64,000 nucleotides of DNA from an uncultured Verrucomicrobiae bacterium (GTDB lineage Bacteria; Verrucomicrobiota; Verrucomicrobiia; Chthoniobacterales; JAFAMB01), in the NCBI GenBank assembly GCA_963813025.1, contig CAWEXO010000011.1, positions 896,001 through 960,000 of the forward strand. Direction: 5' to 3'. The notes beneath the pieces are model-generated. The model was not told the DNA's origin and did no database searches. It saw nothing but the letters and a program-made list of their open reading frames with translations. Each line of letters begins with the position of its first letter. Within the stretch, counting starts at the first letter, position 1. Positions 31,673 through 50,720 of this stretch are shown here, piece after piece. Position numbers and translations under genes: made by a program.

Positions 31673-31739
31673 ACCAGCCTGCCTCACTCACAAACCCTGA
31701 GGGATCTTCGAGCGATGCAGCCTGCGACCCAGCAACTGA

Positions 31740-32903: not shown

Positions 32904-33004
32904 AAAAACCTCTCACTATATGTGAGCAAACCTGTTTTCAACCAAGGAATGTGAAGCGACTAGAATGCCAATCTGTTCAGAGTTCTTCAGCTGCCCACTT
33001 ACAT

Positions 33005-33064
33005 TCCGCCGCTGAAGCCGCTCCCGCCGCTTCCTCCGCTCGATTGACTCGTACCTGATCAGCC
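33005..33064 (-). repeat. Dispersed repeat family A, copy 3
   Basis: CCGCCGCTGAAGCCGCTCCCGCCGCTTCCTCCGCTCGATTGAC...CCTGATCAG. Confidence 0.8.
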
Positions 33065-33123
33065 GCTGAGCTGTGACGATCGATGAACCGATGAGCCGGC
33101 GAGTCGGTCTAACGCAAAACTGT

Positions 33124-33158
33124 GAAACGCGAAACGCGAAACGTGAAACGCGAAACCC
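33124..33158. repeat. Heptamer tandem repeat GAAACGY x5
   Basis: GAAACGC GAAACGC GAAACGT GAAACGC GAAACCC directly before the prmA ATG; reverse-complement relatives at about 30912-30940. Confidence 0.85.
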
Positions 33159-33159
33159 T

Positions 33160-34005: not shown

Positions 34006-34212
34006 GCGGGGGGAGCGGCGGGAGCGGGTTCAGCGGGAGGAGGTAGTGCCAGAGGTGGAGAGTTGAGCAGTGACATCCGCCCGCCACACGCAAACCGTTT
34101 TTGTCGATGTAACCATCGAACTTGAGCACTAAGCAGCTAGCTTCCTCCGCTGAACCCGCTCCCGCCGCTCCCTCGGCTCGGTTGACTGATACCTGGCCAG
34201 TTGGTCAGCTGT
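33996..34212. repeat. Dispersed repeat family A, inverted pair (copies 4 and 5)
   Basis: TTGAGCGGGGGGAGCGGCGGGAGCGGGTTCAGCGG (from about 34002) and reverse complement at about 34133-34212. Confidence 0.85.
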
Positions 34213-34272
34213 ATTAGCTTGCGTCGATGACGCGGACTTATCTAGAAGAGGACGCTCCATCGTTCCGCGTGT

Positions 34273-34593
34273 ATGATTCATCGTATTGTTCTCTATAAAC
34301 TCAGACCAGCAGTCACCCCGGAAGGCCTGGAGGAGATTATGATGCAAACGCGCATGCAGCTCCTGAAAATTGGAGTCGCGATGAACGTGCGCTGCGGACG
34401 GCGAATCGACGAAAATAATGTCTGGCCCTTTTTCCTGGCAGTCGAGTTCGACTCCAAAGAGCGTCTGGCGATCTTCCAGGACGATCCGATCTATATCAAG
34501 TTTCTCGAAGAGACAATCAAGCCGAATACCTCCGAGTCGCTCGTGCTCGATTACGAAACGGATCCCAAACGCAAGCACCCTTCGAACCACTGA
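34273..34593 (+). CDS. Dabb family (stress-responsive A/B barrel) protein
   Basis: MIHRIVLYKLR, VEFDSKE, LVLDYE; 106 aa. Confidence 0.75.
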   Translation: MIHRIVLYKLRPAVTPEGLEEIMMQTRMQLLKIGVAMNVRCGRRIDENNVWPFFLAVEFDSKERLAIFQDDPIYIKFLEETIKPNTSESLVLDYETDPKRKHPSNH

Positions 34594-35930: not shown

Positions 35931-35989
35931 GTTTATTTCCCCAGTTCCGTGCGGTAAGAACGGACGCTCGAAGGATCGACCGGTTCTTT

Positions 35990-37429: not shown

Positions 37430-37611
37430 GCAATAGGTTCCTCGTGATTTCCGTGCTCCATTCAGGTGTTTATAAATATTGCCAGTAATTCAACAACCCC
37501 GGTTTTCAAAACGTATTCCCCCTGGCAGCAGTGCTGATCCAAGCTTTGCGGTGAATGGTCCTTGTCAAAGAGGTGGGTCTTGATAAGGTGCGGAATTTCC
37601 GTTCGTGAGCT

Positions 37612-38088
37612 ATGACTTTGGGCTCTCTGCTATCCGTCAATCAGATCATTCCAGAAATGAAGGCCTCCGAGCGGTGGGCCGCAATTGTCGAATTGATCGA
37701 TTTGCTGGTCGATAAGGGGCGGGTCAAGGTGGCTGACCGTGAATCTATCCTGAGCGCTCTGCGGCAGCGGGAGGAGACGATGAGCACCGGTATTGGCTTT
37801 GGCATTGCGATTCCGCACGCGTCCTCGAGCTGTGTTTCCGAGGTTATTGCCGCCTTTGGCCGGTCGACCACGGGAATAGAGTTCGATTCGCTCGATAATT
37901 CGTTAGTCAAATTCATCGTGCTGTTTGTCGTGCCAAAGGACCAGTTCCAGGTGCATCTACGGACTTTGGCGGCGATCGCAAAGTTCCTGAACGACAAAAA
38001 TGTTCGGGAGCAGCTGGGGAAAGCCGACAATGCCGATGAAATTCTCGCTATCTTCGACAATAAAGCGTCCCGTCCGCAGACGCCTTGA
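37612..38088 (+). CDS. PTS IIA component (PtsN/fructose-type)
   Basis: RE..MSTGIGFGIAIPH, FDSLD, HLRTLA. Confidence 0.93.
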   Translation: MTLGSLLSVNQIIPEMKASERWAAIVELIDLLVDKGRVKVADRESILSALRQREETMSTGIGFGIAIPHASSSCVSEVIAAFGRSTTGIEFDSLDNSLVKFIVLFVVPKDQFQVHLRTLAAIAKFLNDKNVREQLGKADNADEILAIFDNKASRPQTP

Positions 38089-38186
38089 AAGCTTGCGTCT
38101 TGAAGCCTCGCTCCGCGCGGTCATAAAGCGCTGCAGGAGAGGCGCAACTCCAAGGCGCCCTTCGCTACCGGCGGCCGTTTTCTTAA

Positions 38187-39887
38187 ATGACAACGTTGGC
38201 TCAAAATCTGGAAGCTCGTTTGCGCGCTGCATTGCGCGCGGCTGATCTGCCCGACGAACCGATCGAGGTGGCGCCCACGGCGGACCCTCGGCACGGAGAT
38301 TATCAAACCAATCTCGCGCTGATTTTGGGCAAGTCCCAGCGAACGAATCCGCGAGCGCTGGCCAACCGAATCGTCGAGCACCTCGTGGTAGGCGACCTGG
38401 GTGCTCCCGCGGAAGTCGCTGGTCCCGGTTTCATCAATTTTCGTTTCGGGGCCGAGTTTCTGAACGGGGAACTCGCGAAAATGGCGCGCGACCCGCGTTT
38501 GGGTGCCGCGGAGAGCACCCATCCGAAAACCATCGTCATTGATTTCAGTTCGCCCAACATCGCCAAACCAATGCACGTTGGACATATTCGTTCGACCGTA
38601 CTGGGGGACGCGCTCGCGCGGATCAGCCGATTTTTGGGGCACCGGGTGATCAGCGACAATCACCTCGGCGACTGGGGTACCCAGTTCGGAAAACTGATCT
38701 ATGGATGGCAACACTTTCTTGAGCGGTCGGCGCTGGCTCCCGATCCGATGGCGGAACTTGTCCGCGTGTATCGCGAGGTCGAAGTCCTCTCGAAAAAGGA
38801 TCCGGCAATTCTCGAACTCTGTCGCCAGAACCTGGTCAGACTCCAGCAAGGAGATCCCGAGATGGTCGCTATCTGGCGGGAGTGCGTTGAACATTCAAAA
38901 CGGGAGTTTACCCAAGTCTACCAACGTCTGGACGTCCATTTTGACGAGCAGCTTGGCGAAAGTTTTTATCATTTCTTGCTCCCCGGAATCGTCGACGAGT
39001 TGCTGAAACGCGGATTGGCCGAAGAAAGCCAAGGCGCAGTTGTGTACTGGGATCGCTCACTCTCCGCGGACCCGTTTATAATTCGGAAGTCCGACGGCGG
39101 GTTTGGCTATGCAGCGACCGATTTGGCCACGCTGAAGTACCGGGTGGACCGCTGGCAGCCTGGAAGTATCTGGTATGTCGTGGGCGTTCCGCAACGCCTT
39201 CATTTTCAACTGCTCTTCGGTCTTGCTCGCCAGATCGGTTACACCATCGATCTGGCGCATATTGATTTCGGAAATATCCTCGGTGCCGATCGCAAGTTGA
39301 TGCGGACCCGCTCTGGCGATCCGGTGCCTCTGAAAGATTTGCTGGACGAGGCGATCGATCGGGCGAGGACCTTGGTGCGAGAGAAAAACCCGCAACTCTC
39401 TGCAGAGGAGCGCGAAGCGGTCGCCAAGACGGTAGGAATCGGCGCCCTGAAATACGCCGAATTGTCACAACATCGGATGACAGACTACGTCTTTTCGTGG
39501 GACAAGCTCCTGGCTTTGCAGGGCAACACTGCTCCCTATCTCCAGAATGCGTTTGTCCGCAGCAGATCGATCTTTCGCCGGCTGAGCAAACCATTCGTTT
39601 GGGCGGGCACGATTGCGTTGCGCGAACCAGCGGAACTGGCGTTGGCGAAAAAGCTCCTCATTTTTCCGGAGACGGTTCCGGTGGTTTTGGACGGTTTTAA
39701 GCCGAACGTGCTGGCCAATTATTTATACGAGCTGGCCTCGGAGTACCACGGGTTTTACGAGCGTTGTCCGGTGTTGACGGCCGCCGAGCCGTCGCGTTCC
39801 ACCCGCTTATTGCTCTGCGACATTTTCGCGCGGGTGCTGGAGCTTGGGCTCAGTCTTTTGGGGATCGGGGTACCCGAGAAAATGTAG
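38187..39887 (+). CDS. argS: Arginine--tRNA ligase
   Basis: GDYQTN, AGPGFINF, SSPNIAKPMHVGH, GDWGTQFG, GNTAPYLQ, PEKM. Confidence 0.98.
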   Translation: MTTLAQNLEARLRAALRAADLPDEPIEVAPTADPRHGDYQTNLALILGKSQRTNPRALANRIVEHLVVGDLGAPAEVAGPGFINFRFGAEFLNGELAKMARDPRLGAAESTHPKTIVIDFSSPNIAKPMHVGHIRSTVLGDALARISRFLGHRVISDNHLGDWGTQFGKLIYGWQHFLERSALAPDPMAELVRVYREVEVLSKKDPAILELCRQNLVRLQQGDPEMVAIWRECVEHSKREFTQVYQRLDVHFDEQLGESFYHFLLPGIVDELLKRGLAEESQGAVVYWDRSLSADPFIIRKSDGGFGYAATDLATLKYRVDRWQPGSIWYVVGVPQRLHFQLLFGLARQIGYTIDLAHIDFGNILGADRKLMRTRSGDPVPLKDLLDEAIDRARTLVREKNPQLSAEEREAVAKTVGIGALKYAELSQHRMTDYVFSWDKLLALQGNTAPYLQNAFVRSRSIFRRLSKPFVWAGTIALREPAELALAKKLLIFPETVPVVLDGFKPNVLANYLYELASEYHGFYERCPVLTAAEPSRSTRLLLCDIFARVLELGLSLLGIGVPEKM

Positions 39888-39967
39888 GCAGCTGATCAAC
39901 TGGACAGGTAACAGTCATTTGAGCGGAGGGAGCGGCAGGAGCGGGTTCAGCGGAGGGAGGTAGCTGA
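39888..39967 (+). repeat. Dispersed repeat family A, copy 6
   Basis: GCAGCTGATCAACTGG...TTGAGCGGAGGGAGCGGCAGGAGCGGGTTCAGCGGAGGGAGGTAGCTG, starts right after the argS stop. Confidence 0.85.
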
Positions 39968-39983
39968 CAACTGGAAAGCAACC

Positions 39984-40055
39984 AACTCCTTGAACTCCTT
40001 GAATTCCTTGAACTCCTTGAACTCCTTGAACTCCTTGAACTCCTTGAACTCCTTG
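39984..40055. repeat. 9-bp tandem repeat AACTCCTTG x8
   Basis: Seven exact units plus one AATTCCTTG. Confidence 0.95.
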
Positions 40056-40116
40056 GATGCTTTACCCCTGAACTTCATTGTCAACACCCGGTTCATCATC
40101 TTAATTGCCCCCATCT

Positions 40117-40809
40117 ATGGCGGAACATGGCAAGCATATCTACAGCGGATTTGATGCTGCGCTGAACTCTCTGAAGAACGACGTTCTGATGATGTCCAGT
40201 CTGACCGAGCGACTTCTGGAGAACGCCATTCAAGGAGTGCTGCAGCGGGACAACGGATTGTGCAATCTGGCGATCGCGGATGATCAGGAGGTCGACGTGT
40301 TGGAAAAGCAAGTCGATCAAAACGGTGTCGATCTTCTCTTGCGTTATCAGCCTGTCTCGGTAGATATGCGCGAGGTCATCTCCGCCATGAAGGTAGGTGC
40401 AAACCTCGAGCGGATCGCGGACCAGGGAGTGACCATCGGTCGTCGAGGCAAGAAGCTGAATCAGGAGGCGTTGGTCCCCGAGATTTCGTTAATCGAACCT
40501 CTCTATCGAGAGGCGATCAGCATTTTCCGCGATAGCATGCGGGCTTACACGGACGGCAATCCCGACCTGGCCTTGCAACTAAAGCCGCGCGATCGCCAAC
40601 TTGATCTGTTGAACGCGGATGTCAACGAGACCTTGATTACGCGGATGGCCGCCCAGCCAGACCGAATTAGGACTTTCATGAACCTCATCTTCGTCGCGCG
40701 TTCTCTCGAGCGAATTGGTGATCACGCCACGAATATCGCGGAGGACGCTTTCTGGGTCGAGCAAGCGGAGGATATCCGGCACACCTACGGCGCGAAGCAG
40801 GAAGACTGA
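40117..40809 (+). CDS. phoU: Phosphate signalling protein PhoU
   Basis: DDQEVD..E, YQPV..DMR, LERIAD, LERIGDHATNIAE. Confidence 0.95.
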   Translation: MAEHGKHIYSGFDAALNSLKNDVLMMSSLTERLLENAIQGVLQRDNGLCNLAIADDQEVDVLEKQVDQNGVDLLLRYQPVSVDMREVISAMKVGANLERIADQGVTIGRRGKKLNQEALVPEISLIEPLYREAISIFRDSMRAYTDGNPDLALQLKPRDRQLDLLNADVNETLITRMAAQPDRIRTFMNLIFVARSLERIGDHATNIAEDAFWVEQAEDIRHTYGAKQED

Positions 40810-40876
40810 GGAGGTTGCGAGACAATTTCCTCGACAAGCCCGGGAGGTACTTTAGTTGTGACGGAGTCGTATTAAC

Positions 40877-41836
40877 ATGTCCCAGTCAGACTCATTCAAA
40901 AAGACGGCAGTTGTCACCGGTGGCGTAGGGTTCTTGGGCTCTCATCTCTGCGATCGTCTCCTCGCCGAAGGATTCCGGGTGATCGCGATCGACAACTTCA
41001 TTACCGGCTCGCCCGATAATATCAGCCACCTGGCGGCGAACCAGCATTTCCATTTTTTTCGCCAGAACGTCTCGGACTACATATTTATTCCGGGACCGGT
41101 CGATTATGTTTTTCATTTTGCTTCGCCGGCCAGTCCGATTGACTACTTGGAACATCCGATACCGACATTGAAAGTCGGTGCGCTGGGTACCCATAACTCT
41201 CTCGGACTAGCGAAAGACAAAGGAGCGACTTTTTTGTTGGCCTCAACCTCGGAATCGTACGGCGATCCGCTGGTTCATCCCCAAAACGAAGACTACTGGG
41301 GGAACGTGAATCCGATTGGTCCAAGAGGGGTGTACGATGAGGCAAAACGATTTGCCGAAGCGATGACAATGGCCTACCACCGCTATCATCGGATGGACAC
41401 CAAGATCGTCCGGATTTTCAATACTTATGGGCCCCGGATGAGGCTGCGCGATGGCCGGGTCGTCCCCGCTTTTATCAGTCAAGCGCTCAATTGCGAACCA
41501 TTGACCGTTTTTGGGGACGGAAACCAGACCCGCAGCTTTTGTTACGTTTCCGATCTCATCGACGGGATTTTTCGCCTGGCTTTGAGCGATTATCACGGCC
41601 CGGTGAATCTCGGGAATCCGCAGGAAATGACGATCAGGCAATTTGCCGAGCGGATCCGGGAAATTGTGGGCGTTAATGTCGAGATTGTTTACCGGCCGCT
41701 CCCCGAGGACGATCCCAAGGTCCGGCAGCCGGACATCACCCGCGCCCGCCAACTGCTCGGATGGGAACCAAAAGTGAGCTTCGTGGATGGTATCCGGGAG
41801 ACAATCCAGTATTTCAAAGAAAAATTAAAAGCCTAG
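40877..41836 (+). CDS. UDP-glucuronate decarboxylase (UXS)-like NAD-dependent SDR
   Basis: [45 protein letters not shown]. Confidence 0.93.
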
Positions 41837-41922
41837 CGAGAGGCGCGCCTCGGACCAACGAGATTTAGTGGAAAAAGGCGGCGCGGTGATGCTGAAAGTC
41901 ATTTCAGCTTTTTCCAGCTTCC

Positions 41923-42525
41923 ATGCCTGCAATCGGAATAACCGGCGGCGTGGCAACGGGTAAATCGTCGGTCGCCCAAGAGCTCGCCGCGAATCTGGCT
42001 CCCCGAATCCCCGTTCTCATGTTTAGCGCAGATTTTGAGGCTCGGAGATTGACGGATTCAGATTTCGCGGTACAAGAGGAAATTAGGTCGGCATTCGGAG
42101 GTCAGGTTTTCCATCCGGATGGTGCTCTTGCCCGGGATCGGCTGCGAGAGTTGGTATTCCAGGACGCCTCAGCGCGAAAGCGACTGGAAGAAATCCTGCA
42201 CCCACGGATTCGACAGGCTTGGATCGCGCATTTGCGAGAAGAGCGGTTGCTCCTAGCGGAGATCCCGCTGTTGTATGAAACAGCCGCTGACCAAAATTTT
42301 GATTTAATAATCGTTACTGCTTGTAGTTTGAACTCCCAAAAGTATCGCCTCGTGACTGGACGAGGGCTGCCAATGACGCTGGCCGAACAGGTGATTGGCT
42401 CGCAACTCTCCCTGGACGACAAGATCCGCAGAGCCGATCGCCTTGTTTGGACTGACTGCCCAACGCACATAACGAAACTGCAGCTGAATTATCTGGCTCA
42501 AGAACTCATCGACCGTTATGGATGA
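41923..42525 (+). CDS. coaE: Dephospho-CoA kinase
   Basis: IGITGGVATGKS, LEEILHP, EIPLLYE. Confidence 0.95.
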   Translation: MPAIGITGGVATGKSSVAQELAANLAPRIPVLMFSADFEARRLTDSDFAVQEEIRSAFGGQVFHPDGALARDRLRELVFQDASARKRLEEILHPRIRQAWIAHLREERLLLAEIPLLYETAADQNFDLIIVTACSLNSQKYRLVTGRGLPMTLAEQVIGSQLSLDDKIRRADRLVWTDCPTHITKLQLNYLAQELIDRYG

Positions 42526-43831
42526 CCGAACGCCGGGAGCTGTTCCCGGCTCAATGTATTTAACCGAGGGGGGCGCCACGCTGGAGTTAGGGACCCTTCA
42601 CGAGCTTAGCCATCCGACGCTGCTCGAGCTGGCCGCCGAGTTCCCTCTCCGGACTTCGCACGAACGCACGCGTCACCAGATTATTTTTGACCTCCTCAAA
42701 GCTTACGCCGGCCGTGAGATTGCCGTGGTGGCCGAAGGCATGCTGGAAGTTACCAACGAGAGTTACGGGTTTCTTCGTTGGGAAAAATACAACTTTACCC
42801 CTTGCCCCGAGGACGTCTATGTACCCGCCGTATTTCTCAAAAAATACGGTTTACGGGCGGGGCACAAGGTGAAGGGGGTGATCCGCCCGCCGCGGGACAA
42901 GGAGAAGTTCATGGCCTTGGAGCAGGTCATCTCGATCGAGCGCATCCCCCTCGAGAACTGGGAGGAACCGAAGCACTTCGATCAGCTCACCGCCCTCTTC
43001 CCCGATCGTCGAATTCTTCTGGAAAATCTCCGGACAAAGAGCGTCAGCGCCCGAGCAGTCGATTTGATTGCCCCGCTCGGCCGCGGCCAGCGTGGCTTGA
43101 TTGTCGCGGCGCCACGCACCGGAAAGACCATTCTCCTGAAGGAGATCGCGCTCGCTATTCGGGCAAATTGTCCCGATGTGCATTTGATCCTGCTGCTCGT
43201 AAACGAACGACCGGAGGAAGTCACGGACCTCAAGAGCGTGCTCGACTGCGAGATTTTCAGCTCCACTTTCGACGAATCGCCCGCCCGGCACGTGCAGGTG
43301 GCGGAGTTGGTCAGCGAGCGGGCCAAACGGCTGGTTGAACTGCGCAAAGATGTCGTAATTCTCCTGGATAGCATTACCCGGCTGGCCCGCGGTTACAATG
43401 CCCTGCAACCGGGCAAGGGGCGGATTATGTCCGGCGGAGTCGAAGCCAAAGCTCTCCTGAAGCCGAAGAAATTCTTCGGAGCAGCCCGCAATGTGGAGGA
43501 AGGTGGCAGCCTGACCATTTTGGCGACTGCCTTGATCGATACCGAAAGCCGGATGGACGAAGTGATCTTTGAGGAATTCAAGGGAACCGGTAACATGGAG
43601 CTGCACCTCGATCGCACGCTCGTCGAAAAAAGAATCTACCCAGCAATCCATATCCTGAAATCCGCGACGCGGCGGGACGATCTCCTCTATCATCCGGAAG
43701 AGTTTGAGCGGGTGACGCTTCTTCGGAAGAAGCTCGCTCAGCTGCCGGCCATTGAAGCGATGGAAGTGCTGCTCCAGACCCTGAAGGCGACTAAGAGCAA
43801 TGCCGAGCTGTTGCTCACCGCCTTGCGTTAG
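42518..43831 (+). CDS. rho: Transcription termination factor Rho
   Basis: [45 protein letters not shown]. Confidence 0.98.
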
Positions 43832-43833
43832 TT

Positions 43834-44904
43834 ATGATTGAGGAAGCGAAGCTCATTGACTCAAGCAACGCACTCGTGGACTGGTGCGCCGCCATCGCCC
43901 GAGCGAATGTGATCGCCCTCGATACGGAGGGTGACAGTCTCCATTGCTATTTTGAAAAGCTCTGTCTGATCCAGATCGGCTTGCCTGACCGGAACATCCT
44001 CGTAGACCCCCTCGCGGCAATCGATCTTTCTCCGCTTAACGCCACATTGGAGGGAAAGCCGCTGGTCTTCCACGGCTGCGATTATGATCTTCGGATGCTT
44101 CGGCGAGGAATTGGGTTTTCTCCGAACAACGTCTTTGATACTTACCACGCCGCACGGCTCGCCGGAATCAAAGAAGTAGGGTACGCGTCGCTCGTGAAAT
44201 TTTTCTTTGGAATTGATCTCCCGAAATCCTCGCAAAAAGCCAATTGGGCCAGGCGCCCGCTCACTCTTCCCATGATGAAATATGCGCTCAATGACACCCG
44301 TTATCTCCTGGACTTGAGCGATCGCTTGGCCGCTTTGCTCCAGGCTAAGCAGCGCTGGTCGTGGTTGGAGGAAACATGCGGCCGGGCGGTCGCAGCGGCA
44401 GCCACGGATCGAGATCGTGATCTGGACAAGGTCTGGAAAGTCGCCGGAAGCGCTGCTCTGCGGGGTCAAGCCTCCGCGGTGCTGCGCGAGCTCTGGTTTT
44501 GGCGGGACGCCGAAGCGCGCGAAGTCGACCGGCCCGCTTTTCAGATCCTGCGCAACGAGGATCTGATCGCCATCGCGCGGCGGGCAGCAGAAACTGATTT
44601 TGTGGAACTGCCGGGGCATTTACCTTCCGGCCGGCGGAGAAGATTGCGGGAATCGATCGAGAGAGCGCTGCGTCTTCCCGAATCGGCTTGGCCCCAGGCG
44701 CAATCAGCTCCACGAGTGCGTTCCACCGCTGAACAGGATCAGCTTTTTGAAGTTCTAAAGAGCAAGCGCGATAAAGTAGCCGCCGAGCTGGAGCTGGATC
44801 CGGGCGTCGTCGCGCCGCGACAAGCGTTGGAACGTGTCGCGCGAGAGCCGGAATCCAGTTCGGAGGTTTTGATGGCTTGGCAATGCGAGTTGCTTGGGTT
44901 GTAG
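43834..44904 (+). CDS. rnd: Ribonuclease D (DEDDy exonuclease + HRDC)
   Basis: ALDTE, LCLIQI, YD, FDT, W..RPL...M..YALND, WRD..AR..DRP. Confidence 0.9.
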   Translation: MIEEAKLIDSSNALVDWCAAIARANVIALDTEGDSLHCYFEKLCLIQIGLPDRNILVDPLAAIDLSPLNATLEGKPLVFHGCDYDLRMLRRGIGFSPNNVFDTYHAARLAGIKEVGYASLVKFFFGIDLPKSSQKANWARRPLTLPMMKYALNDTRYLLDLSDRLAALLQAKQRWSWLEETCGRAVAAAATDRDRDLDKVWKVAGSAALRGQASAVLRELWFWRDAEAREVDRPAFQILRNEDLIAIARRAAETDFVELPGHLPSGRRRRLRESIERALRLPESAWPQAQSAPRVRSTAEQDQLFEVLKSKRDKVAAELELDPGVVAPRQALERVAREPESSSEVLMAWQCELLGL

Positions 44905-44911
44905 GGGAAAG

Positions 44912-45170
44912 GGAGTTCAAGGAAGTTCAAGGAAGTTCAGGGAAGTACCCTTCGGACTCTACTCAGATTCACTGTGTGTCCTCGAAAGCGGGCGACCCAC
45001 CTTCGCCTTCGCTGCGCTCACCCACGGCGCGGCAGGCCTTGTCGCCGCTTTGAGACTGCGGGTCTACCCGCCGTCGGCGAGTCCGCGGGAATGAAGGAGG
45101 GAGCGCGACCCCAACCAAGCGGGTCTTTTTCGCCAGGCAACTTGGCCTGAATTTCCCTGAACTTCCCCTC
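44912..45170. repeat. Composite intergenic repeat: GGAAGTTCAA-type arrays flanking a REP-like unit (family C)
   Basis: 10-mer units at 44912-44946, inverted relatives at about 45147-45170; unit 44994-45051 matches the reverse complement of 56545-56603. Confidence 0.7.
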
Positions 45171-45230
45171 CGCCCGCCAACTTTCCCGTTGGCAAGAAGA
45201 ACCAGGTGAGCTAAGAATCTTTCAACAATC

Positions 45231-45317
45231 ATGAAACCGAACCGGATTTCGCTGACCAGCTATGCTGTCAAAAGCGAGTTCTTCGGCTACCGGTTTTTCT
45301 TTTGGCGCGTTATCTAG
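45231..45317 (+). CDS. Putative aromatic amino acid attenuator leader peptide (28 aa)
   Basis: [28 protein letters not shown]: 5 Phe, 2 Tyr, 1 Trp; 173 nt upstream of the aroF ATG. Confidence 0.75.
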
Positions 45318-45490
45318 GCGCCGACCTCTCGCTCCCGTCCCCTGCGAGTGTTCTTCAGTCGACGCTTGTTCTAATCATGCAGACGCTTACCCCTCCATCT
45401 CCTGTCTCGAGTTCGAGGAAATTGTCATCGAAACAGCCGGATATTAATAAAAGTTGCGATAGATCAACCCTCACCCCGAACTTCCTTGCC

Positions 45491-46504
45491 ATGATCATCA
45501 TTACTCGTCCTGATGCGACTGAGGAGCAGATCGAACACGTCGTGTCCCGAATCCGTGCCTGGGGCCTGAAAGCCGAGGTCAGCCGCGGCAAGATGCGCGT
45601 CGTGATCGGCGTGATCGGGCCCGAAGATAAAATCCGCGAAAAGCCGCTCGGCGCTTTCCCCGGAGTCGAATCAGTGACGCCGGTTCTGAAGCCGTACAAA
45701 CTGGTCGCGTACGAATTTCGCGGGACGCCCTCAGTAATCCGCGTCGGGCAAGTGCCGATCGGGACAAAGCAGATCGTCGTGATGGCCGGACCTTGCTCGG
45801 TCGAGAGCGAGGAACAGATCACCGAGATTGCCCACAGCGTTAAGGCGTCCGGGGCAAAGATTCTCCGCGGCGGCGCCTTCAAACCGCGCACTTCGCCGTA
45901 CAGTTTTCAAGGATTGGGGAAGGTCGGTCTGCAACTCCTGGCCGAAGCACGCAAACAAACCGGGATGCCGATCATTACCGAGGTCATGGATACCAAAGAT
46001 CTCGATCTCGTCGTCGAGTATGCTGATTGCCTCCAAATCGGCGCGCGTAACATGCAGAATTTTTCTCTGTTGCGCGAAGTTGGCCGAACCCGATTGCCGG
46101 TGATGTTAAAACGCGGCATGTCCGCCACGATCAAGGACCTGCTTATGAGTGCGGAATACATTTTGAGCGAAGGCAACTTCAATGTACTCCTTTGCGAGCG
46201 GGGCATTCGGACATTTGAGACAATGACGCGAAACACACTCGATCTGAACGCGGTTCCAGTACTGAAGTCGGAAACCCATTTGCCCGTGGTGGTCGATCCA
46301 ACACACGGGGTGGGCGTCCGCGATTACATACCCGCCATGGCTTTAGCGGCGGTTGCCGCGGGCGCCGATTCGATTATGCTGGAGGTCCATAACGCTCCCG
46401 AACAGGCGAAAAGCGACGGAGAACAATCCCTTTTACCGGAATCCTTCAGCCGATTGGTTGAACGGATCCGGGACGTCGCTTTGGCGGTTGGGCGCAGCCT
46501 TTGA
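45491..46504 (+). CDS. aroF: DAHP synthase, type I-beta with N-terminal ACT/ferredoxin-like regulatory domain
   Basis: [53 protein letters not shown]. Confidence 0.96.
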
Positions 46505-46729
46505 AATGATGTTTGCCGATCGATCGTCAAGATCTCGCCCGGAGCGCACTGCGTGCCGAAGTCGTAACTACTCTTCCGCCTTTTCGCTGGCTTTGACGCA
46601 GCCCTTTGGCGGGTGCCAGGATCCGCGTACCGGCACCGCATGAGTCCAAGCGAACAATTCGGTCTGCTTGCCTTCGAAGATCGAGGAAGAGGACGAGCAC
46701 GAGGAGGAATATCCTCGAGGCATAATGGC

Positions 46730-47401
46730 ATGTTCAGAGCGATTCTAGCCGCGCTGGCGTTTGGATGTTTGATGGTGCAATCCGTGCTGGGAGCCGAATC
46801 GAAAGCGCTGAATTCCACGCTTGAGCGAGCAAGCGACGCTTTGTCGCGCGGCAAGCTGGCCGAAGCCGAGAAGCTGGTGGACAGCGCTAACCGAATTGCT
46901 CCGGACAAACCGGACGTTGCCAACCTGCGAGGAGCGCTTTTTTCCAGGCAAGGCAAGTACCAGGAAGCAGCTCAGCAATTCAATAGAGCTCTCCAACTCG
47001 ACCCAAACTTTCAATTGGCGAAATTCAACCTCGCCGAATTGGCTCTTCTCCAAGGCAACTTTGACGAAGCCCGCAACCGTTTTACCCAACTGCAAAAACT
47101 CGATCCCGACTCCGAGCTGCTTCAATTCAAGCTCGTGTTGTGCGACGTCTTGCAAAATCGCGAAGCGGACGCGATCAGCGGCACCGAGCAGATCAACTTT
47201 CCCGGTCATACTCCGGCTTACTACTTCGCGCGGGCCGCGATCCTTTTTCGAAAGAACCAGACTGGGGAGGCGAATCAATATCTGGTAAACGCACGAAAGT
47301 ATTACACGCAGGCGCAATGTGCCTACTTTGAGCAGGCGCTGCGCGAACTAAAACTGATCCCGCCGTCCGGCACCGGCACTGCGGCAAAAGAAAAGCAATG
47401 A
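46730..47401 (+). CDS. Secreted tetratricopeptide repeat protein
   Basis: Signal peptide MFRAILAALAFG; TPR motifs NLRGA...YQEAAQQFNRALQLDP, FNLAE. Confidence 0.85.
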   Translation: MFRAILAALAFGCLMVQSVLGAESKALNSTLERASDALSRGKLAEAEKLVDSANRIAPDKPDVANLRGALFSRQGKYQEAAQQFNRALQLDPNFQLAKFNLAELALLQGNFDEARNRFTQLQKLDPDSELLQFKLVLCDVLQNREADAISGTEQINFPGHTPAYYFARAAILFRKNQTGEANQYLVNARKYYTQAQCAYFEQALRELKLIPPSGTGTAAKEKQ

Positions 47402-48075
47402 TCGTAGGTCCAGCCAAACAGAGGATAGGAGCAATTATCGAAAGGCTGCAGGCCACTTATCCCCACGCTCATTGTGCGCTGCAATTTAGCAACCCGTTCG
47501 AACTGCTGGTCGCCACGATTCTTTCCGCCCAGACGACCGATGCCCGCGTCAACCTGGTGACTCGCCAGCTTTTTTCGAAGTATCCGCACCCGATCAACCT
47601 CGCCGAGGCTGATCCGGCTGAGCTGGAGGAGGATATCAAGAGCACTGGATTTTTTCGCAACAAAGCAAAGAGCTTGCGTCTGATGGCGAGGGACTTGGTT
47701 GACAAGTTCGGTGGCGAAGTTCCCCGGACTATCAAGGACCTGACCAGTTTAGCCGGGGTGGGCCGCAAGACGGCCAATGTCGTTTTAGGGAATGCCTTTC
47801 AAATCGAGGAAGGCGTGGTCGTCGACACGCATGTTGCCCGGCTCTCGCAGCGCCTGAAGCTCAGCCGGCAGATCGCTCCGGAGAAAATTGAAGCTGACCT
47901 GATGCGTCTGGTGCCGCGGCGCCATTGGACCAACTTCAGCCACTGGCTGATTTGGCATGGAAGACGACGGTGTTTCGCGCGCAAACCGGACTGTCCGCGC
48001 TGCGAACTGGCCGATCTTTGTCCGAGCTGCGGCCGCTTCGAAAAGAAAAAGTCGGCCGCCAAGCCTGCTCGGTAG
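47398..48075 (+). CDS. nth: Endonuclease III
   Basis: LVATILSAQTTD, LAGVGRKTANVV, VDTHV, C-X6-C-X2-C-X5-C. Confidence 0.97.
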   Translation: MIVGPAKQRIGAIIERLQATYPHAHCALQFSNPFELLVATILSAQTTDARVNLVTRQLFSKYPHPINLAEADPAELEEDIKSTGFFRNKAKSLRLMARDLVDKFGGEVPRTIKDLTSLAGVGRKTANVVLGNAFQIEEGVVVDTHVARLSQRLKLSRQIAPEKIEADLMRLVPRRHWTNFSHWLIWHGRRRCFARKPDCPRCELADLCPSCGRFEKKKSAAKPAR

Positions 48076-48120
48076 GAGGTAGCGTTGGCCCGGTGCGGCC
48101 AGTTCGGCCCGGCGTATTGC

Positions 48121-48277
48121 GGAGCGCGCGACTTGTCGCCACTTGCTGACCCGAGCGGAGCGAGGCTGCCGATAAGGCAGGTCTTTTCGCCATGGAATTC
48201 TGCACTTCATGGTTCGGCAGTGGGCCGGGGCCGCGCTCCACGCGGATCCTAAAGCGGCGACAAGTCGCACGCACTCC
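48121..48277. repeat. REP-like inverted pair (family B, GCGACAAGTCGC core)
   Basis: GGAGCGCGCGACTTGTCGCCACTT (48121-48144) vs AAGCGGCGACAAGTCGCACGCACTCC (48252-48277); third copy at 60441-60482. Confidence 0.8.
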
Positions 48278-48428
48278 AAGACGCGCCGCGAATAGGCAGC
48301 GCTTCCGAGCAGATCCGGATGTTGAATGATGGCGCTAGACAAGCTCAAAAACCTTCCCCTCTCGCTCGGAATATTTCGCTTTGCGCCTAGCGTTTTTCGC
48401 ACTACCTGCTGAGAACTCACTTATCGCA

Positions 48429-49205
48429 ATGATCGCTCAAGTTCTTTCTGGCAAAATCGGAGTCGTTTTTGGTGTCGCCAACAAGCGCAGCATCGCGTGG
48501 GCGATCGCGCAAGCCTGGGCCGCGGCCGGCGCCAAGCTCATTTTCAACTATCAGGGAGAACGCTTGAAGGAAAACGTGGAAGAATTGGCCGGGACTTTCG
48601 GCTCTGCGGTCCCGATTTACCCCTGCGACGTCTCTCGAGAAAGCGATATCGCTGAATTTTTCCGGAATGTTCGGAATCATACCGACCGGGTGGATTGTCT
48701 GCTACACGCCGTCGCTTTTGCTCCGAGAGAAGCCTTGGAAGGCGAATTTATCAATACATCGCGATCAGCCTTTCTGACCGCGCATGAAATAAGCGCTTAT
48801 TCGCTGGTAGCGCTTACCAGAGAGGCGGTACCGCTGATGGCCAACGGCGGCAGTGTAGTGGCAATGACCTACTATGGTTCCCAAAAAGTCGTGCCGCATT
48901 ACAACGTGATGGGTGTAGCCAAAGCCAGTTTGGAAGCCAGCTGCCGCTATCTCGCTTACGATCTGGGACCCAAAAAAATTCGGATCAACTGTATCAGCGC
49001 CGGACCGGTGCAAACGCTGGCTGCGCGCGGTATCAGCGGCTTTACGACGATGTTGAAACAGTACCAGGAAAAGGCGCCATTGCGTCGGAGCTGTGATCCG
49101 GCGGAGCTCGGGCAGACTGGTGTTTTTCTGGCCAGCGACGGCGCAGCGGCAATCACCGGACAAGTGATCTACGTCGATGGCGGCTACGAGATCATGGGAA
49201 TGTGA
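48429..49205 (+). CDS. fabI: Enoyl-ACP reductase (NADH)
   Basis: GVANKRSIAW, HAVAFAP, ISAYS, YNVMGVAKASLE, SAGP. Confidence 0.97.
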   Translation: MIAQVLSGKIGVVFGVANKRSIAWAIAQAWAAAGAKLIFNYQGERLKENVEELAGTFGSAVPIYPCDVSRESDIAEFFRNVRNHTDRVDCLLHAVAFAPREALEGEFINTSRSAFLTAHEISAYSLVALTREAVPLMANGGSVVAMTYYGSQKVVPHYNVMGVAKASLEASCRYLAYDLGPKKIRINCISAGPVQTLAARGISGFTTMLKQYQEKAPLRRSCDPAELGQTGVFLASDGAAAITGQVIYVDGGYEIMGM

Positions 49206-49206
49206 A

Positions 49207-49344
49207 GCAGCTGATCAGGCTGGCATGTGGCAGTTATTTGAGCGGAGGAAGCGGCGGGAGCGGGTTCAGCGGCGGGAAGTAGCGGAACAGCTGAAGCAGT
49301 TCCCCGAACTTCCCCCGAACTTCCCCGAACTTCCCCAAACTTCC
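49207..49344 (+). repeat. Repeat family A copy 7 followed by a TTCCCCGAAC-type tandem array
   Basis: GCAGCTGATCAG...TTGAGCGGAGGAAGCGGCGGGAGCGGGTTCAGCGG, then about four 10-11-mer units. Confidence 0.85.
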
Positions 49345-49346
49345 TC

Positions 49347-50720
49347 TTGAACCCTATCGACCTCCAGAAACTGATTGACCTTCTCGGGCCGGATATTGTG
49401 TCGGTCGATCCACAGGTCCTGGAGAGCAACAGCGGAGATAAGTGGTTCGCCCGGCACCGCCCGGACGTTGTGGTCAATCCAAGCTCCACTGCTCAGGTCG
49501 CTCGGCTCTTGGAGTTTGCCAGCAAACATCAGGTACCGATCACGGCGCGAGGTTCCGGCTACGGTTACGTGGGCGGGTGTGTGCCTGAGCGAGGCGGGAT
49601 CGTGCTTTCCCTGGCGCGGATGACCCGCATCAAGGAGATCTCTGTGCCGGACGGGGTTGCCGTGGTGGAGCCCGGTGTGATTACCGGGGATTTGCAAAAG
49701 GTCGCGCGTCAACAGGGTTTGTTTTACCCGCCCGATCCGGCCAGCCTTAAGAACAGTTCAATCGGCGGAAACATCGCCACGAATGCCGGCGGACCCCGGT
49801 GCTTGAAATATGGCGTAACGCGAAACTATGTGCTCGGTGTCGAGGTGGTATTGATCGGCGGCTCGGTCGTGCGTCTCGGGGCGCGAACTTTGAAGAACAA
49901 AACCGGATTTGATCTGGTTGGCTTGTTTGTCGGCTCTGAGGGCATGCTCGGCGTGGTGACAGAAGCAACCCTGCGGCTCCTGCCTTTGCCTCCCGCCCGA
50001 GGATCTCTGTCGGCCAGCTTTGGCACGATCGAGGTGGCGGCCGCTGCCGTGCAGTTAATTCTCGCCGAGGGATTTCTGCCGTCTGCCTTGGAGATTGCAG
50101 ACCGGTTCACCCTGGAAGCGGCCCGGGAACATCTGTCCCAGCAGATTGTACCGGCAGGAGCGGCTCACTTGCTCGTCGACCTGGACGGACAGATCGAATC
50201 GGTAAAGTTGGAATTGGCCGCCCTTGCGACTCTGATCCAATCGGCGGGCGCTCTGAGCCTTGAATCGGCTTTTGGCGAAGCCGCCTGTGAGCGATTGTGG
50301 GACTTGCGCCGCGGCTTTTCGGAGTCCCTCAAGGCGACCGGATTGATTAAGCTTAACGAAGACGTGACGGTGCCGCGCGGTCGATTGGTGGATCTCGTCG
50401 AGTTTGCCTCTGAGCTACAGAAAAAATACCGGTTTCCGGTTGCGTGCTTCGGCCACGCCGGAGACGGAAACATCCATGTGAATATCATGGTTGCTGACCC
50501 CAACAGTCCGGGCGTCGCCGAAAAAATGGAACAGGCGCTCGACGCCCTCTTTGCCCAGGTCCTTGCTTGGGGTGGAGCGATTACCGGTGAACACGGTATC
50601 GGATTAGCCAAAAAAAGGTGGTGGCCGGACGCTGTATCGGCGGAGAACCAGGCATTGCATCGGAAGATTAAAGACGTGCTTGACCCGGAAAATCTGCTCA
50701 ACCCTGGAAAATTCCTCTAA
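49347..50720 (+). CDS. FAD-linked oxidase, GlcD/D-lactate dehydrogenase family
   Basis: RGSG, YPPDPAS, IGGNIATNAGG, GSEGMLG, HAGDGNIH, GEHGIG, NPGK; TTG start. Confidence 0.92.
   Translation: MNPIDLQKLIDLLGPDIVSVDPQVLESNSGDKWFARHRPDVVVNPSSTAQVARLLEFASKHQVPITARGSGYGYVGGCVPERGGIVLSLARMTRIKEISVPDGVAVVEPGVITGDLQKVARQQGLFYPPDPASLKNSSIGGNIATNAGGPRCLKYGVTRNYVLGVEVVLIGGSVVRLGARTLKNKTGFDLVGLFVGSEGMLGVVTEATLRLLPLPPARGSLSASFGTIEVAAAAVQLILAEGFLPSALEIADRFTLEAAREHLSQQIVPAGAAHLLVDLDGQIESVKLELAALATLIQSAGALSLESAFGEAACERLWDLRRGFSESLKATGLIKLNEDVTVPRGRLVDLVEFASELQKKYRFPVACFGHAGDGNIHVNIMVADPNSPGVAEKMEQALDALFAQVLAWGGAITGEHGIGLAKKRWWPDAVSAENQALHRKIKDVLDPENLLNPGKFL

What the first reader, a model, noticed from the sequence alone, without database searches (positions are those of the whole stretch)
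45231..45317. Unannotated Phe/Tyr/Trp leader peptide upstream of DAHP synthase: candidate attenuator sensing all three aromatic amino acids
Seen: ATG 45231 to TAG 45317 encodes [28 protein letters not shown]; 7 of 9 consecutive codons (FFGYRFFFW) are aromatic and all three end products are represented; it lies 173 nt upstream of aroF, the first step of the common aromatic pathway. Known: ribosome-stalling leaders control trp, pheA and pheST operons through runs of cognate codons, usually for one amino acid. Inference: one leader integrating Phe-, Tyr- and Trp-tRNA charging at the pathway entry. I do not know of a described case in this lineage; that needs a literature check.
Basis: partly seen in the sequence, partly recalled or inferred. 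Interest (0 to 1): 0.9.

Follow-up and report, generated by a model that had tools for sequence, protein, structure and literature searches.

The report
Aromatic leader peptide before DAHP synthase
A tiny upstream gene packed with Phe, Tyr and Trp codons sits in front of the first enzyme of aromatic amino-acid synthesis in a soil Verrucomicrobia family, and probably lets ribosome speed set that enzyme's expression, though it lacks the usual transcription stop signal.

Summary
ATG 45231 to TAG 45317 encodes a 28-residue peptide with 7 aromatic residues in 9. It is the most aromatic-dense of 70,658 short ORFs in this genome.

It is conserved. 27 of 40 usable DAHP synthase loci in this Chthoniobacterales family carry a homologous ORF, and all 27 hold Phe, Tyr and Trp codons. 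A conserved TTGGCA promoter lies 39-49 nt upstream of the ORF start.

A hairpin with compensatory changes starts at or next to the leader's stop codon. An invariant ATG at 45377 is in frame with aroF in 25 of 27 loci, so the real gap is about 59 nt, not 173.

No hairpin-plus-U terminator is present in the leader, nor enriched at gene ends genome-wide. The downstream RNA is C-rich and G-poor in 27 of 27 loci.

I read it as a ribosome-sensing attenuator whose output is probably Rho-dependent. That output is inferred, not shown.

The closest known case is Corynebacterium glutamicum aroR-aroF. This scan has noted aromatic leaders before DAHP synthase on other DNA, in cyanobacteria and archaea. I also found terminator-bearing ones in Gemmatimonadota and Terriglobia.

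The parts
45189..45218 (+). Promoter-like site: -35 TTGGCA (45189-45194), 18 nt spacer by the scan tool (17 nt if the -10 is read as TAAGAAT, 45212-45218), -10 AAGAAT (45213-45218). It predicts a transcript start only a few bases before the leader ATG.
   Evidence: It is the only sigma-70-like match in 30001-50000, where shuffles give 7.4 on average. TTGGCA followed by 17 nt and a TAnnnT-like box recurs in 25 of 27 leader-bearing loci, with the -35 start 39-49 nt before the leader start. The transcript start itself is inferred.
45231..45317 (+). Leader ORF of 28 codons, [28 protein letters not shown].
   Evidence: It is the unique top score among 70,658 short ORFs. Homologous ORFs occur in 27 of 40 usable family loci.
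45279..45305 (+). Aromatic codon cluster, codons 17-25 (F F G Y R F F F W). This is the proposed ribosome stalling zone. The Trp codon is 45303-45305.
   Evidence: all 27 leaders have 3-7 F, 1-4 Y and 1-2 W in the C-terminal part. The UGG is invariant, F and Y swap places, and TTT/TTC and TAT/TAC alternate.
45303..45323 (+). Local hairpin UGGCGC / GCGCCG with the stop codon in its loop. Its 5' arm is the Trp-Arg codons. It is a candidate '1:2' pairing that competes with the conserved hairpin.
   Evidence: An equivalent pairing is visible in genera g1, g6, g10 and g11. It is not better than shuffled controls across all loci, so it remains tentative.
45315..45368 (+). Conserved hairpin. The outer helix pairs 45315-45320 and 45322-45325 with 45358-45361 and 45363-45368, and its 5' strand includes the leader stop codon. 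The inner stem pairs 45328-45332 with 45344-45348. An unpaired pyrimidine-rich stretch lies at 45349-45356.
   Evidence: On 27 loci, 84.6% of cells pair against 74.4 +/- 1.7 in shuffles (0 of 500 reach the observed value). Seven of 9 pairs change on both sides, and slid controls give 22-42%. In this window the core helix is weaker, with 4 of 6 core pairs.
45318..45490 (+). C-rich, G-poor RNA (C 0.34, G 0.19). It is a candidate Rho loading region.
   Evidence: C exceeds G in 27 of 27 loci (means 0.34 and 0.20), whereas the aroF coding sequence has C 0.28 and G 0.30. The skew of this stretch is in the top 1.8% of genome windows of equal length. Its function as a Rho loading site is inferred.
45377..45490 (+). 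Invariant ATG (45377-45379) followed by 38 codons that are in frame with aroF and contain no stop. This is probably the true start, giving a Pro/Ser/Thr-rich N-terminal extension.
   Evidence: the ATG is invariant in the alignment. It is in frame and open in 25 of 27 leader loci, and in those 25 loci its distance to the MII.. start is 114-138 nt, always a multiple of 3. Family loci that lost the leader also lost this ATG or its frame.
45491..46504 (+). DAHP synthase of the type that carries an N-terminal ferredoxin-like regulatory domain, counted from the Met-Ile-Ile start shared with leaderless orthologs.
   Evidence: Pfam. Orthologs are 82-98% identical across the family. A 50% identical paralog lies elsewhere in the genome, and the genome-wide scan flagged no aromatic short ORF there.

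Best explanation
This is a leader-peptide (ribosome-mediated) attenuator of the DAHP synthase gene. Transcription starts a few bases before the 28-codon leader. When Phe-, Tyr- or Trp-tRNA is scarce, the leading ribosome stalls in the aromatic run (45279-45305). That position leaves the RNA just downstream free to fold into the conserved hairpin (45315-45368). When supply is good, the ribosome runs on to the stop codon. The stop codon lies inside or next to the 5' strand of that hairpin, so the hairpin cannot form while the polymerase moves on. I propose that the unfolded, pyrimidine- and C-rich RNA then lets Rho load and end transcription before or early in aroF. The folded hairpin would hide that RNA until ribosomes starting at the conserved ATG at 45377 cover the rest. 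What is shown: the conserved ORF and its codon content, the promoter, the hairpin and its position relative to the stop codon, the in-frame ATG, the C-over-G skew, and the absence of canonical terminators. What is inferred: stalling, the direction of the switch and the role of Rho. I put about 0.75 on 'a leader that senses aromatic tRNA charging' and about 0.35 on 'the output is Rho-dependent'.
For: - Codon content: the ORF is the single most aromatic-dense of 70,658 short ORFs in the genome. It sits before the pathway's first enzyme.
- Conservation: 27 of 40 usable family loci, in 7 of 10 assessable genera, carry a homologous ORF. All 27 contain F, Y and W, with 25 distinct 3' parts, F/Y swaps and synonymous changes.
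- Promoter: TTGGCA, 17 nt, then a TAnnnT-like box occurs in 25 of 27 loci, placed 39-49 nt before the leader start.
- Hairpin: covariation is supported. Its 5' strand begins from 1 nt before the stop codon to 8 nt after it in the 25 loci the script placed correctly; L013 and L121 were mis-placed there and I re-placed them by hand at -4 and +3.
- No intrinsic terminator: none in the leader. Hairpin-plus-U sites occur at 17 of 1,649 gene ends against 15 of 1,649 inside genes. There is no extra RNA structure after stop codons.
- Candidate Rho loading RNA: C exceeds G in 27 of 27 loci between the leader stop and the Met-Ile-Ile start. A Rho gene is present at 42518-43831.
- Linked ATG: the ATG at 45377 and its frame are kept in 25 of 27 leader loci and lost where the leader is lost.
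- Same logic elsewhere: aromatic leader ORFs followed by strong canonical terminators precede homologous DAHP synthases in 7 of 79 usable loci from other phyla.
- Precedent: C. glutamicum aroR-aroF (passages of PMC11802643 and PMC4046766).
Against: - There are no expression data.
- No terminator or other unambiguous 'off' element was found, so the output is a guess.
- The pairing of the Trp-Arg codons with downstream RNA is no better than shuffled controls, and its partner differs between genera.
- Modelled access to the ATG at 45377 does not change consistently with ribosome position.
- In this window the core of the conserved helix has only 4 of 6 pairs.
- I chose the helix boundaries by maximising pairing, which inflates the figures, and the sequences are related to each other.
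- 13 of 40 family loci lack the leader, so it is dispensable. In some g4 genomes Leu or Ser codons replace aromatic ones.
- The leader has no Shine-Dalgarno sequence here, and its predicted 5' untranslated region is very short.
- C-rich composition could simply reflect the Pro/Ser/Thr-rich extension it encodes.
Confidence: 0.55

Rival explanations
1. Same leader and same sensing, but the output is translational. Ribosome position in the leader changes RNA folding around the ATG at 45377, so that initiation of aroF translation goes up on starvation (the erm/cat type of translational attenuation). Any change in transcription would then be a secondary effect of lost coupling.
For: The lineage shows no canonical terminators. 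No Shine-Dalgarno motif was noticed before the leader, the ATG at 45377 or the Met-Ile-Ile start when reading the sequence (not scanned for), so folding could dominate initiation. In genus g8 the Trp-Trp codons pair with the bases just before and into that ATG. In g4, g6, g7 and g11 the 3' strand of the hairpin can form weak helices around the ATG, at -6 to -11 kcal/mol.
Against: With the ribosome footprint masked at each aromatic codon or at the stop, the predicted unpaired fraction of the start region changes little and in no consistent direction across 16 loci. The pairings differ between genera and are weak. The start region is already 45-85% unpaired in the free RNA.
Confidence: 0.15
2. 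Same leader, with a non-canonical intrinsic terminator. The small inner stem (45328-45348) plus the following pyrimidine stretch (45349-45356) would stop the polymerase, and alternative pairing with the leader's Trp-Arg codons would act as antiterminator.
For: An inner stem of 4-6 pairs followed by 6-11 unpaired U/C bases is present in most of the 27 loci, and some have true U runs, for example 6-7 U in genus g7. In g4 and g7 the Trp-Arg codons are complementary to the 3' strand of the inner stem.
Against: The stems are short and weak, and the tract is C-rich rather than U-rich in many loci. The consensus scan finds nothing in the leader, and the genome shows no use of such terminators at gene ends. 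A ribosome stalled on the Tyr or Trp codons would cover the proposed antiterminator strand, which gives the wrong logic. This model does not explain the covarying outer helix.
Confidence: 0.12
3. The ORF encodes a nascent arrest peptide that senses free aromatic amino acid inside the ribosome tunnel, as TnaC does, rather than sensing tRNA charging.
For: There is an invariant Trp, followed by Arg or Trp, at a fixed short distance (3-7 codons) from the stop, and the C-terminal motif is conserved.
Against: The residues around the Trp swap freely between F and Y, and the N-terminal half is not conserved. Arrest induced by abundant amino acid would need the opposite wiring for a biosynthetic gene. 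The conserved UGGCGC could equally be conserved as RNA.
Confidence: 0.05
4. There is no sensing. The frame is either a small hydrophobic protein in its own right or an incidental frame across a structured, T-rich 5' region of the aroF mRNA.
For: No expression data exist. 13 of 40 family loci do without it.
Against: Start, frame and stop are kept in 27 loci in spite of length changes. Aromatic identity is kept through F/Y swaps, while the rest of the peptide drifts. The cognate gene lies downstream, and independent aromatic leaders stand before the same gene in other phyla.
Confidence: 0.08

Closest known systems
Corynebacterium glutamicum aroR leader upstream of aroF (DAHP synthase). Neshat et al. 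2014 was not seen by me; I read passages of the review PMC11802643 and of PMC4046766.
   Same: A short leader ORF with aromatic codons stands directly before a DAHP synthase gene. Expression is reported to rise when ribosomes stall at those codons.
   Different: The phylum differs (Actinobacteria against Verrucomicrobiota). aroR has a Phe-Tyr-Phe motif without Trp, is described as a transcription attenuator, and responded to Phe but not to Tyr. Here 7-10 aromatic codons include an invariant Trp, no terminator is detectable, and a conserved in-frame ATG extends the enzyme. I did not compare the sequences, because no aroR sequence was on hand.
Classical leader-peptide attenuators of E. coli: trpL-trpEDCBA, pheL-pheA and the pheST leader (as summarised in PMC11802643).
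   Same: A leader ORF with a run of cognate codons lies at the 5' end of the transcript, and an RNA hairpin forms or not depending on where the ribosome stops.
   Different: Those leaders sense one amino acid each and end in a GC hairpin plus U run. Here three amino acids are represented, no such terminator exists, and there is no Rfam leader match.
Leader-peptide switches with Rho-dependent output: E. coli tnaC and Salmonella mgtL-mgtA
   Same: A short leader ORF is followed by C-rich RNA, with no intrinsic terminator. Ribosome position decides whether Rho can use that RNA.
   Different: tnaC senses free Trp at its stop codon and controls a catabolic operon. mgtL senses Pro codons. Rho dependence here is only inferred from composition and from the lack of terminators.
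Aromatic leader ORFs with canonical terminators before homologous DAHP synthases, found here in Gemmatimonadota (L046, L061, L068, L090, L100), Terriglobia (L105) and an unclassified bacterium (L064).
   Same: The same gene family lies downstream, and the leaders mix F, Y and W codons.
   Different: The peptides are unrelated. Each is followed by a strong 8-14 bp GC hairpin plus U run, which the Chthoniobacterales leaders lack.

Membership tests
Classical leader-peptide transcription attenuator (trpL/pheL type) | Short ORF near the 5' end of the transcript with a run of codons for the pathway's end product(s) | tested here: met
   7 aromatic codons in 9, the unique top score among 70,658 short ORFs. 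A conserved promoter lies 39-49 nt upstream.
Classical leader-peptide transcription attenuator (trpL/pheL type) | Lies upstream of a biosynthetic gene for the same amino acid(s), and is conserved with it | tested here: met
   DAHP synthase by Pfam. The leader is present in 27 of 40 usable orthologous loci.
Classical leader-peptide transcription attenuator (trpL/pheL type) | Intrinsic terminator (GC-rich hairpin followed by a U run) between the leader and the structural gene | tested here: not met
   None in 45318-45490. Such sites are not enriched at gene ends in the genome: 17 of 1,649 against 15 of 1,649 inside genes. A similar script does find terminators in the Gemmatimonadota and Terriglobia leaders.
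Classical leader-peptide transcription attenuator (trpL/pheL type) | Mutually exclusive hairpins (1:2, 2:3, 3:4) whose choice depends on ribosome position | tested here: inconclusive
   A covarying hairpin sits where 2:3 would be, with its 5' strand at the stop codon. A 1:2 pairing is seen in some genera only and is not above shuffles. No conserved 3:4 pairing was found.
Classical leader-peptide transcription attenuator (trpL/pheL type) | Expression responds to charging of the cognate tRNAs | not testable with these tools
   No RNA run holds the locus.
Rfam leader families (Trp_leader, Phe_leader and others) | Match to a curated covariance model | tested here: not met
   No match at E up to 10 in 43500-47000. 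None in the whole window at gathering score. None in 4 related leader loci.
Rho-dependent leader-peptide switches (tnaC, mgtL type) | C-rich, G-poor unstructured RNA after the leader, and a Rho gene in the genome | tested here: met
   C 0.34 and G 0.19 over 45318-45490. C exceeds G in 27 of 27 loci. Rho is at 42518-43831. Composition alone does not prove a Rho loading site.
Rho-dependent leader-peptide switches (tnaC, mgtL type) | Termination depends on Rho | not testable with these tools
   This needs bicyclomycin or Rho depletion together with 3'-end mapping.
Translational attenuation (erm/cat type) | A hairpin hides the start region of the regulated gene and is opened by a ribosome stalled in the leader | tested here: inconclusive
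   There is no consistent change in predicted access to the ATG at 45377 across 16 loci. Only genus-specific weak pairings were seen.
C. glutamicum aroR-aroF attenuator | Sequence or structure homology of the leader | not tested
The resemblance is functional only.

The most novel reading that the evidence does not exclude
In a lineage that does not use intrinsic terminators, the classical leader-peptide attenuator has been rebuilt around Rho. A ribosome stalled on Phe, Tyr or Trp codons lets a covarying hairpin fold over a pyrimidine-rich Rho loading site. A dedicated in-frame start codon 13-29 nt past the hairpin then loads ribosomes that shield the rest of the C-rich RNA, at the price of a 38-46 residue extension on the enzyme. 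This would be a tRNA-charging sensor for all three aromatic amino acids with a Rho-dependent output. As far as I recall, that combination is not described.
Probability: 0.3. Interest if true: 0.7.

Novelty: new variant of a known kind. Interest (0 to 1): 0.55.

Why it matters
Leader-peptide attenuation is a textbook mechanism, known mainly from Proteobacteria and a few Actinobacteria, where it always ends in a hairpin-plus-U terminator. Here the sensing half (a leader with all three aromatic codon types at the entry of the common pathway) is conserved across seven genera of soil Verrucomicrobia. The textbook output half is missing, in a genome that shows no such terminators at all.

That makes this locus a compact, testable case of how ribosome-sensing control is wired to Rho or to translation in the many phyla that lack canonical terminators.

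Two practical points follow. The annotated start of this DAHP synthase is probably 38 codons too short. The leader has also been lost repeatedly by deletions that fuse aroF to the upstream RNase D-like gene, which gives natural controls.

The kind of element itself is not rare. I found terminator-bearing versions in Gemmatimonadota and Terriglobia, and this scan has noted many others elsewhere.

Tried and rejected
- Rfam: no family matched the leader. Searches were at E up to 10 over 43500-47000, at gathering score over the whole window and over 9 related loci.
- Whole-leader fold: not unusually stable, z -1.08.
- Translational model: I masked a ribosome footprint at each aromatic codon or at the stop. 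There was no consistent change in access to the ATG at 45377 in 16 loci.
- Alternative pairing of the Trp-Arg codons with downstream RNA: energies were no better than 200 shuffles in most loci, and the partners differ between genera. The test cut off the partner immediately after the stop in some loci, so it is imperfect.
- A conserved 3:4 hairpin using the 3' strand of the conserved helix: only weak, genus-specific structures were found.
- Other leaders in this genome:
  - pheA overlaps the preceding gene and has no leader.
  - The four other aromatic-rich short ORFs that were checked overlap long ORFs in another frame.
  - A His/Trp-rich short ORF on contig C4 is a tandem hexanucleotide repeat at the end of a permease gene, not a leader.
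  - Chorismate_bind (trpE) was not found in this genome, which is about 80% complete.
- TPP and cobalamin riboswitches, sought in order to see how other RNA switches end in this lineage: none found.
- Expression: no RNA holder was listed for 45100-46100, so no reads were laid.
- Literature: searches gave C. glutamicum aroR as the only leader peptide described before a DAHP synthase. I judged the listings by titles and abstracts, and read passages of four papers. The library lacks most subscription journals, and I did not see Neshat et al. 2014 itself.
- Earlier notes of this scan: none for this genome near the locus or for look-alike DNA.

Full report
**What is there**

ATG 45231 to TAG 45317 on the + strand encodes [28 protein letters not shown]. 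Codons 17-25 hold 7 aromatic residues in 9, with Phe, Tyr and Trp all present.

The gene that follows (Met-Ile-Ile start at 45491, stop at 46504) matches Pfam DAHP_synth_1 (E 5.8e-82). Its first 67 residues match the ferredoxin-like regulatory domain DAHP_snth_FXD (E 2.2e-22). Upstream lie Rho (42518-43831) and an RNase D-like gene (43834-44904).

**More than chance**

I listed every ORF of 10-60 codons in all six frames of the 4.42 Mb assembly, 70,658 in all. This is the only one with 7 aromatic residues in any 9-residue stretch. Sixteen others reach 6; the four of them I checked all overlap long ORFs in another frame. Aromatic codons are 8.4% of codons in long ORFs.

**Lineage**

The nearest named records for the enzyme are Chthoniobacteraceae, Chthoniobacter and Chthoniobacterales metagenome bins at 64-79% identity. 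So the window belongs to Chthoniobacterales, in Verrucomicrobiota.

**Conservation**

Across the family I examined 41 orthologous loci from 40 genomes. One of them (L020) has only 63 nt upstream and is unusable.
- 27 of the 40 usable loci have a homologous short ORF that ends 165-209 nt before the Met-Ile-Ile start.
- By genus, as loci with the leader over loci examined: g1 2/2, g10 1/1, g7 5/5, g8 6/7, g6 2/2, g11 1/2, g4 10/17, g5 0/2, g2 0/1, g9 0/1.
- Of the 13 without a leader, eight have only 10-50 nt between the RNase D-like stop and the aroF ATG (L005, L015, L016, L017, L021, L111, L116 and, with some remnant left, L115). Two keep a longer remnant (L122, L124). One keeps only the 3' part of the leader region (L007). 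Two have unrelated upstream DNA (L025, L127).
- Five Chthoniobacterales loci outside the family (L031-L035) and two order-level loci (L024, L026) have no leader.

All 27 peptides carry 3-7 Phe, 1-4 Tyr and 1-2 Trp in their C-terminal part, and 25 of the 27 3' parts are distinct sequences. The UGG is invariant. Phe and Tyr trade places (endings such as FFFYW, FFYYW, FYFYW, FYYFW, YFFYFWW), TTT/TTC and TAT/TAC alternate, and the N-terminal half drifts. That pattern points to selection on aromatic codon identity, not on a particular peptide or merely on a T-rich RNA. In some g4 genomes one or two positions have become Leu or Ser.

**Promoter**

The only sigma-70-like match in 30001-50000 is TTGGCA-N18-AAGAAT at 45189-45218; shuffles of that stretch give 7.4 matches on average. 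A T-rich run, then TTGGCA, 17 nt and a TAnnnT-like box recurs in 25 of 27 leader loci. The -35 box starts 39-49 nt before the leader's start codon. This predicts a transcript that begins only about 4-12 nt before the leader. It argues against an aroF transcript start downstream of the leader, but it is not a measurement.

**A second conserved start codon**

An ATG 48-70 nt after the leader stop (45377 in the window) is invariant in the alignment. It is in frame with aroF, with no stop between, in 25 of 27 loci. In those 25 loci its distance to the Met-Ile-Ile start is 114, 117, 120, 123, 129, 132, 135 or 138 nt, always a multiple of three. The two exceptions are L023 and L118.

Family loci that lost the leader but kept remnants of this stretch have lost the ATG or the frame (L122, L124, L115). 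Leaderless orthologs start at Met-Ile-Ile. I conclude that in leader-bearing genomes translation of the enzyme most likely starts at this ATG. That gives a poorly conserved Pro/Ser/Thr-rich extension of 38-46 residues, and this start belongs to the regulatory module. The leader stop is therefore 59 nt from the start that matters, not 173 nt.

**Conserved hairpin**

Between the leader stop and the second ATG every locus can form a hairpin. It has an outer helix, a short inner stem and a 6-11 nt unpaired U/C stretch on the 3' side.

The outer helix differs between genera in a compensatory way:
- CUGACC/GGUCAG in g4, g7, g10 and g11.
- An 11 bp helix with UCAACC/GGUUGA at its core in g6.
- An 11 bp helix with CUGAG/CUCAG at its core in g8.
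- CGACC/GGUCG plus UAAGCG/CGCUUG in the sister genome of the window.

On an alignment of the 27 hairpins, 84.6% of cells pair against 74.4 +/- 1.7 in column shuffles (0 of 500 shuffles reach the observed value). Seven of 9 pairs show changes on both sides (1 of 500), and sliding the partner by 1-3 columns gives 22-42% paired. Three caveats apply. I set the helix boundaries by maximising pairing. The g8 3' strand was partly misaligned and counted as gaps. The sequences are related to each other.

The 5' strand begins from 1 nt before the leader's stop codon to 8 nt after it in the 25 loci that one search placed correctly. The script mis-placed L013 and L121, and I re-placed them by hand at -4 and +3. 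A terminating ribosome would therefore cover the 5' strand. A ribosome held at or before the Trp codon, which is 18 nt or more upstream of the 5' strand (worked out by hand for the window and g7), would not.

In the window itself the helix is 45315-45326 with 45357-45368. The stop codon lies in the 5' strand, but the core has only 4 of 6 pairs. A competing local hairpin, UGGCGC/GCGCCG (45303-45323), is predicted instead.

**No terminator**

The consensus scan finds no hairpin-plus-U site between the leader and aroF. The two 20 kb stretches of the window that I scanned have no more such sites than shuffles (29 against 25.8 +/- 4.7, and 23 against 24.5 +/- 5.8).

Genome-wide, a hairpin of at least 6 pairs followed by at least 5 U in 8 occurs within -10..+90 of the stop in 17 of 1,649 long ORFs, against 15 of 1,649 control stretches inside ORFs. 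RNA after stop codons is no more structured than RNA inside genes: mean z is -0.23 against -0.18 on 500 stretches each. So this lineage does not seem to use canonical intrinsic terminators at all. A similar script does detect terminators in other phyla.

**Composition downstream**

From the leader stop to the Met-Ile-Ile start, C exceeds G in 27 of 27 loci (means 0.34 and 0.20). The aroF coding sequence has C 0.28 and G 0.30. The window's value of (C-G)/length is in the top 1.8% of equal-length genome windows. This is what a Rho loading site looks like. It is also what a Pro/Ser/Thr-rich coding stretch looks like.

**Mechanism**

I commit to a ribosome-mediated attenuator, at about 0.75. Starvation for an aromatic amino acid stalls the ribosome in 45279-45305, and the conserved hairpin forms. 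With plentiful supply the ribosome reaches the stop codon in or next to the 5' strand, and the hairpin cannot form while the polymerase moves on.

For the output I favour Rho, at about 0.35: unfolded pyrimidine-rich RNA lets Rho load, and the hairpin hides it until ribosomes starting at 45377 take over.

The rivals are a translational output, a weak non-canonical terminator at the inner stem, a TnaC-like arrest peptide, and no sensing at all. The tests I could run did not decide between the outputs.
- Predicted access to the second ATG does not change consistently with ribosome position.
- Pairing of the Trp-Arg codons with downstream RNA is not above shuffles.
- No conserved helix uses the freed 3' strand.

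No RNA data exist for the locus.

**Comparison with what is known**

The closest described system is the aroR leader before aroF in Corynebacterium glutamicum. It has a Phe-Tyr-Phe motif, and transcription of the aroF operon rose on Phe limitation while Tyr availability had no effect. I read this in passages of the review PMC11802643 and of PMC4046766. I did not see the original paper, Neshat et al. 2014.

A 2005 comparative study of Actinobacteria reported no RNA elements for Phe or Tyr genes (PMC1262725, passages). A Shewanella screen lists E. coli aroF as 'attenuator sensing tyr-tRNA', citing a 1980 paper (PMC2659441, passages). A search for Verrucomicrobia together with 'leader peptide' and 'attenuation' matched five papers (four listed), none relevant by title or abstract.

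The present element fails one defining test of the classical family, the intrinsic terminator. I therefore file it as a variant that works like that family and not as a member of it.

**The kind is widespread**

Among 79 usable loci of homologous DAHP synthases from other phyla, seven have unrelated aromatic leader ORFs followed by strong GC hairpins and U runs. They are L046, L061, L068, L090 and L100 (Gemmatimonadota), L105 (Terriglobia) and L064 (unclassified).

This scan's earlier notes hold 232 findings that match the words for aromatic leaders before DAHP synthase, among them cyanobacteria and archaea. None concerns this genome's locus or look-alike DNA. Those notes are unchecked leads; I did not test them.

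**Verdict**

Sensing of all three amino acids and the mechanism of output remain unproven. It is a new variant of a known kind: a new lineage, no terminator, and a linked in-frame start.

Noticed in passing
window 44905-45175: A dispersed repeat lies between the RNase D-like stop and the aroF leader promoter. It has three and a half tandem 10-nt units (AAGGAAGTTC-like, 44909-44944) facing two inverted units (45146-45166) about 200 nt away. The sister genome lacks the whole insert, and its promoter follows the stop directly. Similar paired arrays and pieces of the core occur on most contigs of the genome. It looks like a small non-autonomous mobile or REP-like element.
   Followed up: partly
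L046, L061, L064, L068, L090, L100, L105 (about 90-260 nt before the DAHP synthase start at locus position 1001): Unrelated aromatic-rich leader ORFs, with endings such as ..LAYFTSFWGYSPGSR and ..SSFWYFTYRYWGFAPSR, are each followed by a strong GC hairpin plus U run. They stand before homologous DAHP synthases in Gemmatimonadota, Terriglobia and an unclassified bacterium. They look like textbook attenuators. No Rfam match was found for the five I scanned.
   Followed up: partly
whole genome of the window (G000): Canonical intrinsic terminators are not enriched at gene ends (17 of 1,649 against 15 of 1,649 inside genes). RNA after stop codons is no more structured than RNA inside genes. The lineage may rely on Rho or on unknown signals for termination.
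   Followed up: partly
window 45377-45490 and orthologs: Inside the poorly conserved extension a short motif, GTTGCGA (read as Ser/Gly-Cys-Glu/Asp), is kept in genera g1, g7, g8, g10 and g11. The last eight codons before Met-Ile-Ile are also conserved. I did not resolve whether this is a protein feature or a nucleic-acid site.
   Followed up: no
L008 852-898 (-) and 1031-1077 (+): Two inverted near-threshold matches to the Rfam Acido-Lenti-1 RNA (32.7 and 30.0 bits; gathering score 37) lie 400-650 nt upstream of the aroF start in a genus g7 genome.
   Followed up: no
L005, L015-L017, L021, L111, L115, L116, L122, L124 (family loci): There is a natural deletion series. The promoter, leader and hairpin have been lost to different extents, which leaves aroF directly behind the RNase D-like gene. 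Presence and absence both occur within one genus (g4, 10 of 17 loci with the leader).
   Followed up: partly
window 30001-50000: Sigma-70-like promoter matches are depleted (1 found against 7.4 +/- 2.6 in shuffles). The one match is the aroF leader promoter.
   Followed up: no
G000 contig C4 91846-91902: A short ORF, MNEQLHWHQHWHRHRHWH, is made by a tandem CACTGG/CACAGG repeat between two FtsX-type permease genes. It is not a His leader.
   Followed up: yes
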